DNA of 64,000 nt, taken from contig CAZULS010000002.1 of the NCBI GenBank assembly GCA_964621395.1, forward strand, positions 170,252-234,251, given 5' to 3'. Both the position numbers and the translations under genes were made by a program. Below the pieces are notes generated by a model. The model did not search any database and was not told the origin of the DNA. It worked only from the letters and a program-made list of their open reading frames with translations. Below, in pieces: positions 4,086 through 51,294 of the stretch (position 1 is the stretch's first letter; each line of letters opens with the position of its first letter). This DNA comes from an uncultured Candidatus Saccharibacteria bacterium (GTDB taxonomy: Bacteria; Patescibacteriota; Minisyncoccia; Phycocordibacterales; JACNGX01).

Positions 4086-4408
4086 GAACAGAAGTTAGAA
4101 ATTAGGAATTAGAAATGAGAAAGGCGGCGCGGCTACGCCGCGCCGCTCCCATAGTCAATATCAATATACGTGTCATCCCGTCCAGCCCCACATCATTGAG
4201 CATGGAAATGCATATCCCTAACTCAGCAATAATTCTACCGAGAAAAATCTTTTCTTCTTCAGAATCATAAATGTGGGGCTGGAATGCGGGATCTCCCCGA
4301 ACAGTTTTCGGAAATGATATGACGAAGATTCCGGACTCATGCCCGACCGCTTGCGGTTTAGGGTCAAGTCCGGAATGACAACAATATTTTTTCAGTTCAA
4401 AGTATTTT

Positions 4409-25930: not shown

Positions 25931-27031
25931 CTAGATCTTAAACTCCACCACATCCCCGTCCTTCACCACATACTCCTTCCCTTCTGTGCGCAGGAGACCT
26001 TTCTCACGAGCAGCTGCATATGAACCGCTTTCAAGAAGTGTGTCGGAGTGGATCACTTCAGCGCGGATGAATCTATCACGAAAATCGCTGTGGATGGCGG
26101 CACCCGCTTCCGGTGCGGTGGAATGATAGCTCACCGTCCATGCGCGTGTCTCGTCGGCTCCTGTGGTGAAATATGTCATAAGACCAAGGAGTGCATATGC
26201 TCCGCGAATTAAATCATTGACCCCGTCGTCGCTTCCCGCTCCCAGCTCTTCACGAAACATGCTCTTCTCCTCCCCTTCCAAACTTGAAAGTTCATGCTCA
26301 ATACCGGCGTCGACAATCACATGCTGAGCGCCATTATCGGTAAGAAATTGCATCAGTGCTTCATATCGTGGATCTTCGGGTGTGTCGGAGAGATTGGTTG
26401 CGCCCGCTTTCGTATTGAGCACATAGAGCATCGGTTTTGCGGAAATAAAATTAAGATGTTTGACCGCCTCACGATCTTCCTTTGAAAGATCGATAATTGC
26501 CGCACGTTTTCCGGCATCAAATCCTTCCAGAAGTTTTTTGATTGCTTGCTCTTCGAGCTGGGCACTTTTGTCGCCACGTTTGAGTTCACTTGCAAGGCTA
26601 CCGAGACGCTTTTCCGCGCTTGCCATGTCAGCGAGAATAAGCTCCATGTTGATGGTTTCGATATCGCGCACCGGATTAATGGAACCATCGACATGAGTGA
26701 CATTGCCATCCTCAAACATACGCACCACATGCGCAATAGCGTTCACCTCGCGGATATGTGAGAGGAATTGATTGCCCAAACCCTCCCCTTCTGCCGCACC
26801 TTTCACAAGTCCTGCGATATCCACGAATTCAATCGCGGCAGGAATGGTTTTTGCTGATTGCGAGAACAGAGAGAGTTTCCCCAAGCGTTCGTCAGGCACA
26901 GCAACAACACCGACCGACGGATCGATGGTACAAAACGGAAAATTCTCCGCAGGAACGGATTTTTTCGTGAGCGCATTAAAGAGTGTTGACTTACCAACAT
27001 TCGGCAGTCCGACGATTCCGATAGAGAGCAT
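25931..27031 (-). CDS. ychF: ribosome-binding ATPase YchF (Obg-family GTPase)
   Basis: G1 is GLPNVGKSTLFNALT. The C-terminal TGS domain is present (EGKEYVVKDGDVVEFKI). Confidence 0.9.
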   Translation of the reverse strand: MLSIGIVGLPNVGKSTLFNALTKKSVPAENFPFCTIDPSVGVVAVPDERLGKLSLFSQSAKTIPAAIEFVDIAGLVKGAAEGEGLGNQFLSHIREVNAIAHVVRMFEDGNVTHVDGSINPVRDIETINMELILADMASAEKRLGSLASELKRGDKSAQLEEQAIKKLLEGFDAGKRAAIIDLSKEDREAVKHLNFISAKPMLYVLNTKAGATNLSDTPEDPRYEALMQFLTDNGAQHVIVDAGIEHELSSLEGEEKSMFREELGAGSDDGVNDLIRGAYALLGLMTYFTTGADETRAWTVSYHSTAPEAGAAIHSDFRDRFIRAEVIHSDTLLESGSYAAAREKGLLRTEGKEYVVKDGDVVEFKI

Positions 27032-49751: not shown

Positions 49752-50052
49752 CCGAGAACACCGGAGCGTACAGCAGTATTGTACGACTCCGGTTTGTTGT
49801 TTCCGCGGCCGAGCATCCTTATACCAAGGTTCAACCTTGGTATAAGGATGCTATTATGATTATAGCCTTATATTACAATGGTTTTATACTTACCTATACC
49901 AAGGTTGAACCTTGGTATAGATACTTGTGTCAAGAGAAAGCGCGGCGTATGCCGCGCTTTCTATTTCTATCTCCTATAGCTTTTATCGTTAATAGTTCAG
50001 CGTTTTACTGTGGCCGAGCATGCTCGCCATGCTTTAGGCCCGTTCACCAAGA

Positions 50053-50229
50053 TTATTTCTTCCAATCTTCGATGATGAGCCTAGTTCCCTCCTGGCGGAC
50101 GGTGACCTTCTGTTTTTCTCGCCATTTGAGATTACGGACCATTTCTATCGGAAGTGTGACAGCAATACTTCCATTTCCTATTTTTAATAATTTGCGCGTA
50201 TTTCGTTCTCCGAGAGTTTTACGTGGCAT
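50053..50229 (-). CDS. AbrB/MazE/SpoVT-family DNA-binding protein (58 aa)
   Basis: MPRKTLGERNTRKLLKIGNGSIAVTLPIEMVRNLKWREKQKVTVRQEGTRLIIE is the swapped-hairpin beta-barrel signature (KIGNGSIAVTLP). An AT-rich multi-palindrome lies immediately upstream (50231-50285). Confidence 0.6.
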   Translation of the reverse strand: MPRKTLGERNTRKLLKIGNGSIAVTLPIEMVRNLKWREKQKVTVRQEGTRLIIEDWKK

Positions 50230-50422
50230 ATACGTGAGAAAATTAATTAATAAATTATATAATTTATTATATAATAAATTAATTAATTTTTTTATCCACA
50301 CATAATACTTTTCTTCTTTTTTATCATTTCAACCTCTCCGAGTCGGAATAGTGCGGGATGACAAGATGGGTAGTACACAAAAACACCCCCTTTAGGGGTG
50401 TTTTTGTGACTAATGGTCAGTG

Positions 50423-50460
50423 TGGACCCGACTGGGTTCGAACCAGCGACCTCCTGATTG
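50423..50460 (-). pseudogene. tRNA-Ala 3'-half fragment (anticodon-loop position 36 to discriminator)
   Basis: 38 nt identical to the 3' half of the intact tRNA-Ala at 50526-50599. Identity ends exactly at the anticodon loop (..cctgattg|). Confidence 0.7.
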
Positions 50461-50525
50461 TACCGAAAAGCAAGAAGTGGAACGGCTATGCTTTTCATAT
50501 CCCGTAAAAATGATAATGGTCAGTG

Positions 50526-50599
50526 TGGACCCGACTGGGTTCGAACCAGCGACCTCCTGATTGCAAAACAGGTGCTCTAGCCAACTGAGCTACGGGCCC
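50526..50599 (-). tRNA. tRNA-Ala (anticodon UGC)
   Basis: A manual cloverleaf folds with acceptor GGGCCCG/CGGGUCC, the G3:U70 Ala identity pair, a D-arm GCUC-AGUUGGCUA-GAGC, anticodon loop UUUGCAA, T-arm GCUGG-UUCGAAC-CCAGU and discriminator A. CCA is not encoded. Confidence 0.85.
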
Positions 50600-50688
50600 A
50601 CACTACTCACTATAAGGATATGGTACGGACAAAAGGACTTACTCGGGATCTCGAAAAATATATTCGCTTTGCTCATTATTTTTCGGGA

Positions 50689-50724
50689 CAAAACAGGTGC
50701 TCTAGCCAACTGAGCTACAGGCCC
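50689..50724 (-). pseudogene. tRNA-Ala 5'-half fragment (position 1 to anticodon position 35), 1 mismatch
   Basis: 36 nt matching the 5' half of the intact tRNA (gggcctgtagctcagttggctagagcacctgttttg). It ends at the same anticodon-loop junction as the 3'-half fragment. Confidence 0.7.
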
Positions 50725-51294
50725 AAGTGAGGAATATTATATAGAACACACCAAAAAAAGCAAGGGATTTTGGGTGTTAATTGAATAAAAAACCACCTCA
50801 ATCATAGAGGTGGTATGGAAATCGGGAACAAATTTTCGCACGAACGGCGACATTCCCTCACGGATACGTATTTTTTCTTCTCCATTCTCGTTCTTTCTCT
50901 GCGTATTGCTTCCTGTTCCTCGGCCATCGCCTTTGCTTTTTTATACTGACGACAAAGAGTAAATGGGAACAAATGTAATCCATCATCCTCGAAAAGCCCA
51001 ATGCCTTTTTCAGCATACTTCATAAAGGAATTATGGGCATATTTCTCTGCTGCTTTCAAAAAATGCAGGTACATATTACCCGTTGATAGAAAAGAAAAAA
51101 CCGGTTCGGGGGAAAGAATGACGCGCTTCAGTAAGAACAACGATATCCTCTTCGCACCCTTTTCCGCGCATCGACAAGAAAGAGAAAAAAGGATATGGCG
51201 TTTGTATGCTCTGTATATTTCTCTCAAACCGAAAGAAATAAGAGAGCATGTGGTCAAAAAAGATTGTCTGTTCATAGCACACTCCTTTTTGTTT

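What the first reader, a model, noticed from the sequence alone, without database searches (positions are those of the whole stretch)
50415..50730. tRNA-Ala(UGC) flanked by a 5'-half and a 3'-half copy of itself, both broken at the same anticodon-loop position
On the minus strand the order is: a 5'-half copy (50724-50689, positions 1-35, 1 mismatch), 89 nt, the intact tRNA (50599-50526), 65 nt, then a 3'-half copy (50460-50423, positions 36-73). Both fragments end exactly between anticodon positions 35 and 36. Tyrosine-recombinase integrases frequently cross over in tRNA anticodon loops and leave partial tRNA copies as attL/attR. Two half-copies with the same breakpoint suggest repeated integration and excision at this tRNA with the elements now mostly deleted. 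The adjacent 45.6-50.3 kb stretch (Fic protein, AbrB/MazE-like regulator, five orphan genes with private promoters and terminators, an 840-bp gene-free gap) fits a decayed integrated element. A permuted or split tRNA arrangement is a less likely alternative.
Basis: partly seen in the sequence, partly recalled or inferred. Interest (0 to 1): 0.7.

Follow-up and report, generated by a model that had tools for sequence, protein, structure and literature searches.

The report
A tRNA gene nested inside itself
A complete alanine tRNA gene carried on a 228-base insert sits exactly inside the anticodon of an older copy of the same gene, and the same gene-within-gene layout recurs in related tiny bacteria, where it looks like a way that tRNA genes get replaced.

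Summary
On the minus strand the order is: promoter, 5' half (nt 1-35), 89 nt, intact tRNA-Ala(UGC), 65 nt, 3' half (nt 36-73), terminator. The halves abut with no overlap and no gap.

The simplest reading is one 228-nt insertion (89 nt + tRNA + 65 nt) in the anticodon of an older tRNA-Ala gene. Its promoter and terminator line up with those of an uninterrupted tRNA-Ala gene in another Patescibacteria genome. An independent assembly supports the layout.

The two flanks of the inner tRNA pair into a stalk. Four other Patescibacteria lineages have the same layout with much stronger stalks. In two sister pairs the stalk keeps pairing through compensatory changes, while the outer halves carry deletions and mismatches.

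In Uhrbacteria the outer halves match the uninterrupted gene of sister species, and the inner tRNA is a different allele. One insert with one junction sits in two different resident alleles.

Best explanation: a promoter-less tRNA-Ala replacement insert, with dead or dying outer halves.

There is no shared core, no integrase within 20 kb, no third half-site, and it gives no reason for the flanks to pair. How the insert got in remains unresolved.

The parts
50736..50763 (-). Promoter of the outer (old) gene: -35 TTGCTT (50763-50758), 16-nt spacer, -10 TATAAT (50741-50736), then 11 nt to the first tRNA base
   Evidence: Read from the sequence. The -10 box and leader align with the promoter of the uninterrupted tRNA-Ala gene of L031: TATAATATTCCTCACTT against TACAATATCCCGC-GTT, inside a 53-nt match at 90.6%. 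The consensus scan did not list it because the -35 box matches only 3 of 6 positions.
50689..50724 (-). Outer 5' half: tRNA-Ala positions 1-35 (36 nt), T6 instead of C6
   Evidence: One mismatch to the inner tRNA, 0 matches expected by chance. T6 is also found in the uninterrupted L031 gene.
50600..50688 (-). Left flank x of the insert (89 nt): 5' arm of the stalk and leader of the inner tRNA
   Evidence: Unique in the window. Pairs with y through 44 intermolecular base pairs; cofold -35.0 kcal/mol, z = -2.4, reached by 3 of 300 shuffles.
50526..50599 (-). Inner, intact tRNA-Ala(UGC), the functional copy (G3:U70, A73, no encoded CCA)
   Evidence: ARAGORN. Rfam RF00005 67.2 bits, E = 1.8e-12.
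50461..50525 (-). Right flank y of the insert (65 nt): trailer of the inner tRNA and 3' arm of the stalk. Its first 12 nt (50525-50514) repeat the trailer of the outer gene
50423..50460 (-). Outer 3' half: tRNA-Ala positions 36-73 (38 nt), identical to the inner copy
   Evidence: Exact match, 0 expected by chance.
50376..50422 (-). Trailer (CACTGACCATTA, 50422-50411) and intrinsic terminator (CACAAAAACACCCC-TAAAG-GGGGTGTTTTTGTG, 50408-50376) of the outer gene
   Evidence: 14-bp perfect inverted repeat I9. Together with the outer 3' half it aligns to the 3' half, trailer and terminator of the uninterrupted L031 gene (73% over 104 nt) and to the L026 terminator.
50461..50688 (-). The whole 228-nt insert (x + tRNA + y), sitting between anticodon bases G35 and C36 of the outer gene. 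Its two ends are inverted repeats: TCCCGAAAA ... TTTTCGGTA, 8 of 9

Best explanation
**What it is.** The locus is one transcription unit holding two nested copies of tRNA-Ala(UGC). The outer gene is the older resident copy. It keeps its promoter and terminator but was cut in two by one 228-bp promoter-less insert that landed between anticodon bases 35 and 36. The insert carries a complete tRNA-Ala whose leader and trailer pair into a stalk.

**How it works now.**
- Transcription starts at the old promoter and ends at the old terminator (inferred).
- The stalk holds the ends of the inner tRNA together and keeps it from mispairing with the duplicate halves (inferred).
- The inner tRNA is released by ordinary end-processing: RNase P and RNase Z, probably after a cut in the stalk (inferred).
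- The outer halves make no tRNA and are a young pseudogene.

**How it arose.** One non-homologous insertion into a loop of the resident gene, tolerated only because the insert brings a working copy. Such inserts then spread between genomes by homologous recombination through the conserved tRNA halves. The outer halves are lost later, which leaves a simple gene with a new allele. This last part is inferred from comparison with other genomes.
For: **Shown in the window**
- The halves abut exactly, with no shared core, so one insertion explains both breakpoints.
- The outer promoter, leader and 5' half, and the outer 3' half, trailer and terminator, align with the uninterrupted gene of L031.
- The insert has no convincing promoter of its own.
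- The 351-nt transcript folds with the outer acceptor halves paired and x paired with y: -121.5 kcal/mol, z = -5.06.

**Shown in relatives**
- The same layout (5' piece, arm, intact tRNA-Ala, complementary arm, 3' piece, terminator) occurs in L026/L243 (Kaiserbacteria), L029/L257 (Uhrbacteria) and L244/L245 (Kaiserbacteria).
- Among 261 tRNAs with flanks, leader-trailer duplexes with z <= -5 occur only in these loci.
- L026 against L243: the inner tRNA is 74/74 identical. The 39-bp stalk has 2 compensatory double changes, 2 changes through G-U and none that break a pair. The outer 5' half is only about 78% identical and the outer 3' half is almost erased.
- L029 against L257: one more compensatory pair in the stalk.
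- The joined outer halves of L029 equal the uninterrupted tRNA of sister L258, minus 10 nt and with 1 substitution. The outer halves of L257 equal the L261 tRNA, minus the same 10 nt and with 3 substitutions. The inner tRNA is a third allele, identical to the uninterrupted gene of the syntenic L059. So the outer copy is the resident gene, the inner copy is incoming, and one insert with one junction lies in two different resident alleles.
- Junctions differ between lineages: 0 in the window, about 0 in L026, -10 nt in L029/L257, +3 nt in L244. This fits illegitimate joining, not precise enzyme chemistry.
- The 3' arms of L026 and L029 are similar outside the tRNA, p = 0.0005.
Against: - The window's own stalk is weak: z = -2.4, many mismatches, and no excess of G-U over A-C mismatch types by my count. 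It is not significantly similar to the other inserts.
- The window has no sister genome carrying this locus, so decay of its outer halves is inferred by analogy. Its halves are still intact, and the outer pair U6-G67 is a legal wobble.
- The 3' repeat runs 12-16 nt beyond the tRNA. That needs either a closely related donor or later gene conversion.
- The mechanism and the donor of the insertion are unknown. No copy of x or y was found in the window or in viral contigs.
- No expression or processing data exist.
Confidence: 0.62

Rival explanations
1. Two independent site-specific integrations. One element used the 3' half as its attachment identity block, another used the 5' half, and both were later deleted down to 53 and 88 nt.
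For: - A 50-nt exact repeat running from the anticodon loop to past the tRNA 3' end is a classic att signature (PMC9897764).
- The locus is a synteny breakpoint next to orphan genes, a Fic gene and a MazE-like gene.
- One-sided 3' pieces downstream of tRNA-Ala are common in Patescibacteria: L039, L056, L066, L077, L121, L247, L258.
Against: - The halves abut with zero overlap, whereas tyrosine recombinases leave the crossover core in both products. The junctions share no core.
- It requires two near-total internal deletions that both spare the att sites.
- No integrase lies within 20 kb and there is no third half-site.
- It does not explain the x-y complementarity or its covariation in relatives.
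- In L029/L257 the target lost 10 nt at the junction.
Confidence: 0.1
2. A working interrupted tRNA. The 228 nt act as an intron-like intervening sequence that itself yields a tRNA, and the outer halves are joined into a second tRNA-Ala, or stay paired as a two-piece alanine-accepting RNA.
For: - In the window both outer halves are intact and would form a legal tRNA (U6-G67).
- The insert lies at 35/36, the unusual site where Patescibacteria carry group I introns (PMC13011429).
- The stalk stacks on the outer anticodon stem.
- The outer acceptor stem keeps G3-U70 and, in Uhrbacteria, the CCA end.
Against: - It is not a group I intron. The 5' exon ends in G rather than U, the insert ends in A rather than G, and there is no RF00028 or RF00029 hit even at E <= 10.
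- No bulge-helix-bulge motif can be drawn; the two cut sites face each other in a continuous helix (my inspection).
- In L029/L257 the outer copy lacks 10 nt of the D and anticodon stems. In L026/L243 it has a mutated T-loop, acceptor mismatches and a lost 3' half.
Confidence: 0.08
3. Purely local rearrangement: tandem duplication or triplication of the tRNA gene, followed by deletions or decay of the inner parts of the first and last copies.
For: - Inner and outer copies are almost identical, and the inner trailer repeats 12-16 nt of the outer trailer.
- L244 shows that units of 3' part plus trailer can multiply in tandem.
- By eye, y ends in a promoter-like TTGCTT...TACAAT.
Against: - x is not repeated upstream of the 5' half, and y is not repeated downstream of the 3' half.
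- x and y show no similarity to either tRNA half: local alignment against shuffles gives p = 0.58-1.0.
- Two deletions would have to end at the same base.
- In Uhrbacteria the inner and outer copies are different alleles.
Confidence: 0.07
4. Assembly artefact caused by a repeat.
For: The source is a genome assembled from a metagenome, and the region contains 37-nt and 50-nt repeats.
Against: - The independent Logan contig reproduces the left two thirds exactly and breaks where a k=31 graph must break if the 3' half exists in two contexts.
- Homologous nested loci occur in unrelated assemblies from NCBI, ENA and JGI.
Confidence: 0.02

Closest known systems
Partial tRNA gene copies left by integrative elements (attL/attR direct repeats of 40-50 bp; e.g. 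PYG1 in Pyrococcus yayanosii, PMC9897764; Caldiarchaeum tRNA-Thr fragment, PMC3293823)
   Same: An insertion into a tRNA gene that brings its own tRNA sequence, so that one intact gene survives and fragments are left behind. Here too the 3' repeat runs from the anticodon loop to past the 3' end.
   Different: Those elements are kilobases long, encode a recombinase, leave one fragment, and share a crossover core. Here the insert is 228 bp and non-coding. It carries a whole tRNA, leaves both halves abutting with no core, and its flanks form a conserved helix.
Group I introns at position 35/36 of Patescibacteria tRNA-Asn, -Asp and -Tyr (Nakagawa et al. 2026, PMC13011429)
   Same: Same phylum, same unusual site in the anticodon loop, no target duplication, and a resident gene that supplies promoter and terminator.
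   Different: Those introns follow U35, end in G, match group I models and self-splice. This insert follows G35, ends in A, matches no intron model, is too short once the tRNA is subtracted (154 nt), and contains a full copy of its host gene.
Archaeal split and intron-containing tRNAs (Nanoarchaeum, Caldivirga; reviews PMC4033280, PMC4390854)
   Same: A 5' half followed by a sequence complementary to the sequence that precedes the 3' half, so that a long helix brings the halves together.
   Different: Those rely on a bulge-helix-bulge motif cut by the splicing endonuclease, and the halves are the only copy of the gene. Here no such motif can be drawn, the organism is a bacterium, an intact copy sits in the middle, and the halves decay in relatives.
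Intervening sequences in bacterial rRNA genes, removed by RNase III (my own knowledge)
   Same: An extended stem-loop inserted at the tip of a hairpin loop of a structural RNA gene, with no target duplication, patchy distribution and probable spread by recombination.
   Different: Those sequences carry no gene and the fragmented rRNA still works. Here the stalk carries a tRNA at its tip, and the interrupted host RNA cannot work.
Integron gene cassettes (my own knowledge)
   Same: A small promoter-less cassette with an imperfect inverted repeat, which depends on a promoter at the insertion site.
   Different: Integron cassettes keep the attC hairpin intact at one end, have RYYYAAC/GTTRRRY core sites, and need IntI and attI. 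None of these is seen here.

Membership tests
Integrase att-site duplication (attL/attR at a tRNA gene) | Both junction fragments contain the same crossover core, so the 5' and 3' fragments overlap by 6-8 bp | tested here: not met
   The fragments end at 35 and start at 36 with zero overlap. The junctions TTTTG|TCCCG and CGGTA|CAATC share no core.
Integrase att-site duplication (attL/attR at a tRNA gene) | A recombinase gene, or element-sized DNA, lies between or next to the repeats | tested here: not met
   Only 88 and 53 unique nt lie between the repeats. Pfam and PHROGs scans of ORFs from 29.8 to 52.3 kb find no integrase.
Integrase att-site duplication (attL/attR at a tRNA gene) | A direct repeat covering the tRNA 3' part from the anticodon loop onward | tested here: met
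   A 50-nt exact repeat from position 36 to 12 nt past the 3' end.
Integrase att-site duplication (attL/attR at a tRNA gene) | A further half-site that delimits an island | tested here: not met
   No 16-mer of the tRNA or its trailer (up to 2 mismatches) occurs elsewhere in the 64 kb, apart from one chance hit at 26424.
Group I intron in a tRNA | [quoted passage not shown] | tested here: not met
   The exon ends in G35 and the insert ends in A. The boundaries cannot be shifted.
Group I intron in a tRNA | A match to group I covariance models | tested here: not met
   cmscan of 50300-50900 at E <= 10 lists tRNA and chance hits only.
Archaeal-type bulge-helix-bulge (BHB) intron or split tRNA | Two 3-nt bulges holding the splice sites, separated by a 4-bp helix | tested here: not met
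   By hand on the sequence: the four nt before each site (GUUU and UCGG) cannot pair. In the predicted fold the two sites face each other in one helix.
Archaeal-type bulge-helix-bulge (BHB) intron or split tRNA | A splicing endonuclease (EndA) and a ligase encoded in the genome | not tested
   Only 64 kb of the genome was available.
Miniature transposable element (MITE, IS200/IS605-type) | Several copies in the genome, terminal repeats, and a defined target duplication or target motif | tested here: not met
   No second copy of x, y or the end hairpins in the window. No target duplication. Junctions differ between lineages: 0, -10, +3. Only 64 kb of the genome was searched.
Nested tRNA-Ala replacement insert (the group proposed here: L026/L243, L029/L257, L244/L245) | An intact tRNA-Ala lying between a 5' piece and a 3' piece of a tRNA-Ala, with promoter and terminator outside the pieces | tested here: met
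Nested tRNA-Ala replacement insert (the group proposed here: L026/L243, L029/L257, L244/L245) | A strong leader-trailer helix flanking the inner tRNA | tested here: inconclusive
   In the window: 44 pairs but z only -2.4, and not among the top duplexes. The other members have z from -5 to -12.
Nested tRNA-Ala replacement insert (the group proposed here: L026/L243, L029/L257, L244/L245) | Sequence homology of the arms to other members | tested here: not met
   Window arms against the arms of L026, L029 and L244: p = 0.10-0.66. L026 against L029, y arm: p = 0.0005. Only the 5 nt next to the tRNA (AGTGT ... CACTG/CAGTG) are shared with L026.

The most novel reading that the evidence does not exclude
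The insert belongs to a so far undescribed class of tiny, non-coding, promoter-less tRNA-Ala replacement inserts (a stalk plus a tRNA). They land in loops of resident tRNA-Ala genes and take over the resident promoter and terminator. They then move between Patescibacteria by homologous recombination through the universally conserved tRNA halves. This drives the allele turnover seen in Uhrbacteria, where tRNA-Ala alleles do not follow the phylogeny of the flanking genes.

A bolder version: once the inner tRNA is cut out, the outer halves stay held together by the stalk as a two-piece RNA that AlaRS can charge, because it keeps G3-U70, a T-arm and a helix in place of the anticodon arm, much like the tRNA-like domain of tmRNA.
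Probability: 0.3. Interest if true: 0.85.

Novelty: new variant of a known kind. Interest (0 to 1): 0.62.

Why it matters
tRNA genes are known as landing sites for large mobile elements and, in Patescibacteria, for group I introns. A complete tRNA gene nested in the anticodon of its own older copy was not found in six full-text searches of the paper library. Neither was a leader-trailer stalk that selection maintains.

If the reading is right, several things follow:
- It shows an intermediate stage in the replacement of an essential, single-copy tRNA gene by a foreign allele without a lethal gap.
- It explains why promoters, leaders and terminators of tRNA-Ala genes turn over so fast in these genomes.
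- It warns annotators that half-tRNAs next to an intact gene need not mark genomic islands.
- It offers a natural example of a tRNA expressed from inside a tRNA-like scaffold.
- It gives a simple test, because the outer 5' half carries U6 and the inner tRNA carries C6.

Tried and rejected
1. **Group I or II intron, ribozymes, known small RNAs.** cmscan at gathering thresholds and at E <= 10 found only the tRNA.
2. **Bulge-helix-bulge intron.** No such motif can be drawn (inspection).
3. **x and y hide decayed tRNA halves** (tandem triplication, or a tRNA-like attP carried on a small circle). Similarities seen by eye did not survive local alignment against shuffles: p = 0.58-1.0 in the window. 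The only value below 0.02 among 48 tests was L026 x against b, p = 0.014.
4. **A MITE family.** No other copy of x, y or the CCGAAA...TTTCGG hairpins in the window.
5. **A viral or plasmid donor.** Six viral-contig scans with the tRNA halves and with arm sequences of the window, L029 and L026 gave nothing relevant. One hit, L242, is an unrelated tRNA-Ala.
6. **A GIY-YIG homing endonuclease as the driver.** A small GIY-YIG ORF sits in the outer 5' half of L243, but homologues occur in only 4 fetched loci and none in the window.
7. **The metagenome scan was wasted.** My pattern GTCCAN{40,70}TCAGGAGGTCGC was too loose. All but one of the 120 hits lacked any tRNA context, and that one was a simple tRNA-Ala gene.
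8. **The genome scan hit its row limit.** The degenerate tRNA-Ala pattern stopped at 120 loci, so the closest relatives of the window may have been missed.
9. **Selection on the outer tRNA-like fold in Uhrbacteria.** The compensatory T-stem differences between the L029 and L257 outer halves turned out to be pre-existing alleles, identical to the uninterrupted genes of L258 and L261. They are not covariation after the insertion.
10. **Synteny through ddl.** Two of five further ddl loci fetched (L248/L249, L250/L251) have no tRNA-Ala directly after ddl.
Full report
**1. The observation**

On the minus strand the region reads as follows:
- -35 TTGCTT (50763-50758), 16 nt, -10 TATAAT (50741-50736), 11 nt
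- 5' half (50724-50689)
- 89 nt, called x here (50688-50600)
- intact tRNA-Ala(UGC) (50599-50526)
- 65 nt, called y here (50525-50461)
- 3' half (50460-50423)
- CACTGACCATTA, then a 14-bp-stem terminator (50408-50376)

ARAGORN and Rfam call only the middle copy: 67.2 bits, and it is the only tRNA in the 64 kb. The 5' half differs from the tRNA at one base, T6 for C6. The 3' half is identical to it. Neither is expected by chance. The repeats are really 37 nt (-1 to 35) and 50 nt (36 to +12), the latter reaching 54 nt with one indel. The bases next to each half differ from the tRNA, so both halves break between anticodon bases 35 and 36 without ambiguity.

**2. Not an assembly artefact**

A Logan contig from run SRR8146441 (L001) carries the neighbouring carbonic-anhydrase-like gene. 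It reproduces promoter, 5' half, x and the start of the inner tRNA exactly. It ends 30 nt after G35. A k=31 graph must branch there if the 3' half follows both G (inner) and A (end of y) in the reads. Homologous nested loci in unrelated assemblies, described below, argue the same way.

**3. One insertion, not two**

The halves neither overlap nor leave a gap. Together with the promoter and terminator they make a complete gene interrupted by 228 nt (x + tRNA + y).

The outer parts are orthologous to an uninterrupted tRNA-Ala gene in a complete Paceibacterota chromosome (L031):
- -10 box, leader and 5' half: 90.6% over 53 nt, including T6.
- 3' half, trailer, terminator and beyond: 73% over 104 nt.

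The insert has no convincing promoter. TTGTCC-12 nt-TATAGT is the best candidate, and the scan found none. So the inner tRNA most likely depends on the outer signals.

**4. The flanks pair**

x and y cofold along almost their whole length: 44 intermolecular pairs, -35 kcal/mol, z = -2.4, reached by 3 of 300 shuffles. The helix continues the inner acceptor stem (U-1 with A73, then 5 bp, and so on). It ends at the outer anticodon loop, where the insert termini TCCCGAAAA and TTTTCGGTA are inverted repeats. The 351-nt transcript folds with the outer acceptor halves paired and the inner tRNA at the tip (z = -5.06). Taken alone, the window's helix is only modest evidence.

**5. The same architecture elsewhere**

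A scan of species-representative genomes with a degenerate tRNA-Ala pattern returned 120 loci. Protein-anchored look-ups added more. Four further nested lineages emerged.

(a) *L026 (Kaiserbacteria CG10_49_17) and its close relative L243.* A decayed 5' half, a 39-bp leader-trailer helix, the intact tRNA, then a decayed 3' half (almost erased in L243) with a terminator resembling the window's.

(b) *L029 and L257 (Uhrbacteria).* A 5' piece (1-22), a 19-bp perfect inverted repeat flush with both junctions, the intact tRNA, and a 3' piece (33-76) with a terminator.

(c) *L244/L245 (Kaiserbacteria).* Pieces 4-21 and 19-74, with the junction in the D-loop. The unit of 3' piece plus trailer is repeated in tandem.

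(d) *Weaker cases.* L106, and tRNA-Leu in L044.

Among 261 tRNAs with usable flanks, leader-trailer duplexes with z <= -5 occur only in L026, L243, L029, L257 and L244. Uninterrupted tRNA-Ala genes (L031, L059, L085, L258, L261 and others) lack them.

**6. What selection keeps and what it drops**

- L026 against L243: the inner tRNA is identical at 74 of 74 positions. In the 39-bp helix, all six changed bases preserve pairing: two double compensatory changes (U-A to C-G, A-U to G-C) and two changes through G-U. With the 3' partner slid by 1-3 columns, pairing falls from 95% to 34-44%. The outer 5' half is about 78% identical. It has taken up a 24-nt hairpin, and in L243 a GIY-YIG ORF as well. 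The outer 3' half is nearly gone in L243.
- L029 against L257: one more compensatory pair (C-G to A-U) in the stalk.

So the helix is maintained, most simply at the RNA level because G-U intermediates occur. The outer halves are not maintained.

**7. Which copy is old**

L029, L257 and L258 are about equally related to each other, roughly 82% identical in the flanking genes. They are syntenic around tRNA-Ala, as is L059.

- L258 has an uninterrupted gene. The joined outer halves of L029 equal it, minus 10 nt (positions 23-32) and with one substitution.
- The joined outer halves of L257 equal the uninterrupted gene of L261, minus the same 10 nt and with three substitutions.
- The inner tRNA of both is a third allele, identical to the uninterrupted gene of L059.

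Hence the outer copy is the resident gene and the inner copy is incoming. The same insert, with the same junction, sits in two different resident alleles. That calls for transfer or recombination through the shared tRNA sequence on either side (22 nt and at least 16 nt of identity).

It also shows that the compensatory differences between the two outer T-stems are inherited alleles, not new covariation. The 3' arms of the L026 and L029 inserts are similar outside the tRNA (p = 0.0005). So at least these two inserts share ancestry across distant Patescibacteria.

**8. How the insertion happened is not solved**

Junctions vary: 0 nt in the window, about 0 in L026, -10 nt in L029/L257, and a 3-nt duplication in L244. 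The sites lie in loops, three in the anticodon loop and one in the D-loop. This fits illegitimate joining at a break in an exposed loop better than transposase, integrase or intron chemistry.

Joined head to tail, the insert ends would form a palindrome. It is perfect over 38 bp in L029 and matches 8 of 9 in the window. That hints at a hairpin or circular intermediate, but I could not test it. Only insertions that bring a working tRNA-Ala would survive in an essential gene, which may explain the content of the insert without any targeting.

**9. Why the integrase model fails here**

- No shared crossover core.
- Only 88 and 53 unique nt between the repeats.
- No recombinase between 29.8 and 52.3 kb.
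- No third half-site in 64 kb.
- No reason for x and y to pair.

The relative L252 (85% identical carbonic-anhydrase-like protein) is syntenic from 52.9 kb down to 50785. It then diverges and has no tRNA there. So the tRNA locus and the Fic, MazE-like and orphan genes beyond it lie in variable DNA.

**10. Why it is not an intron or a split tRNA**

- The exon ends in G and the insert ends in A.
- No group I or II hit, even at E <= 10.
- Only 154 nt remain once the tRNA is subtracted.
- No bulge-helix-bulge motif.
- The outer halves are defective in all relatives where time has passed.

[quoted passage not shown] That shared site may reflect the same exposed loop, or it may be coincidence.

**11. 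Why it is not a local triplication**

x and y are not repeated outside the halves. They show no significant similarity to tRNA halves. In Uhrbacteria the inner and outer copies are different alleles.

**12. Caveats for the window itself**

- Its stalk is weak, and its arms are not significantly similar to the other inserts. Only the 5 nt on each side of the tRNA resemble L026.
- It has no sister genome carrying the locus.
- Its 3' repeat extends into the trailer, which needs a closely related donor or later gene conversion.
- Its outer halves are still intact, so a function cannot be excluded. U6 against C6 gives a direct test.

**13. Verdict**

The finding is real and is more than a pair of att scars. 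It is a tRNA gene nested in its own predecessor, and one of several such loci in Patescibacteria. Together these point to replacement of tRNA-Ala genes from within by small promoter-less inserts carrying a selected processing stalk. I found no description of this in the literature searched. It is closest to the partial tRNA copies left by integrative elements, but differs in size, content, junctions and the stalk.

Noticed in passing
L243 2262-2590 (ENA ERZ27293400 k141_157981): An 89-aa GIY-YIG ORF (PF01541, T5orf172). It is bounded by an 18-bp inverted repeat (CCCTCACACGAAACGGTC / GACCGTTTCGTGTGAAGGG) and by a 10-bp direct repeat of tRNA positions 2-11 (GGCCCGTAGC). It sits in the decayed outer 5' half and is absent from the sister locus L026. 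This looks like a small terminal-repeat element with a target duplication that carries a nuclease gene.
   Followed up: partly
L242 about 4300-4345 (IMG/VR UViG_3300033149_006995): A viral contig with a tRNA-Ala. About 120 nt upstream lies a perfect palindrome built from the tRNA leader plus its first 5 nt around CCGTA (CTATCCTTCCCAAGTGAGGGGC CCGTA GCCCCTCACTTGGGAAGGATAG). It looks like a fold-back copy of the gene's start.
   Followed up: no
L106, L022, L019 (Saccharibacteria / Nanosyncoccaceae), about 105 nt upstream of tRNA-Ala: The leader plus the first 19-20 nt of tRNA-Ala is repeated upstream. The 85-nt spacer is conserved in all three species and contains an inverted copy of the D-arm. 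L106 also has a 3' piece (positions 60-77) with a terminator 168 nt downstream.
   Followed up: no
L244/L245 4289-4490 (Kaiserbacteria DRNP01000020.1): The unit of tRNA positions 19-74 plus a 54-nt trailer is repeated in tandem after the intact tRNA-Ala. An older, mutated 3' piece and the terminator follow.
   Followed up: partly
L029, L257, L258, L261, L059 (Uhrbacteria, syntenic tRNA-Ala locus): Three tRNA-Ala alleles (T-stems TGGGG/CCCCA, AGGAG/CTCCT, AAGGG/CCCTT) are distributed against the relatedness of the flanking genes. This implies frequent horizontal replacement of this tRNA gene.
   Followed up: partly
L258 (about 190 nt downstream of its tRNA-Ala), L247 2400-2420, also L039, L056, L066, L077, L121: Short 3'-terminal tRNA pieces (15-46 nt) followed by a second terminator lie 70-270 nt downstream of intact tRNA-Ala genes. 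Such one-sided remnants are common in Patescibacteria.
   Followed up: no
L044 1906-1988 (tRNA-Leu CAA): A 15-nt 5' piece lies 83 nt upstream and a 19-nt 3' piece lies 188 nt downstream of an intact tRNA-Leu. The nested pattern may not be limited to tRNA-Ala.
   Followed up: no
window 49812-49923: Two copies of a 25-nt perfect palindrome, TATACCAAGGTT[C/G]AACCTTGGTATA, lie 75 nt apart in the gene-free gap. The first is extended to a 41-nt hairpin.
   Followed up: no
window 50239-50295: An AT-rich 25-28-nt palindrome overlaps the 5' end of the MazE/AbrB-like ORF (50053-50301, minus strand). It could be an operator site.
   Followed up: no
window 50785 compared with L252 2178 (GCA_014383885.1): Synteny with the closest available relative stops exactly at the terminator upstream of the tRNA locus. 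The relative continues with unrelated genes and has no tRNA there.
   Followed up: partly
L026 1662-2672, L243, L244, L247, L085: In several Kaiserbacteria-like genomes tRNA-Ala lies directly downstream of ddl (D-alanine-D-alanine ligase). Its promoter overlaps the end of ddl.
   Followed up: no
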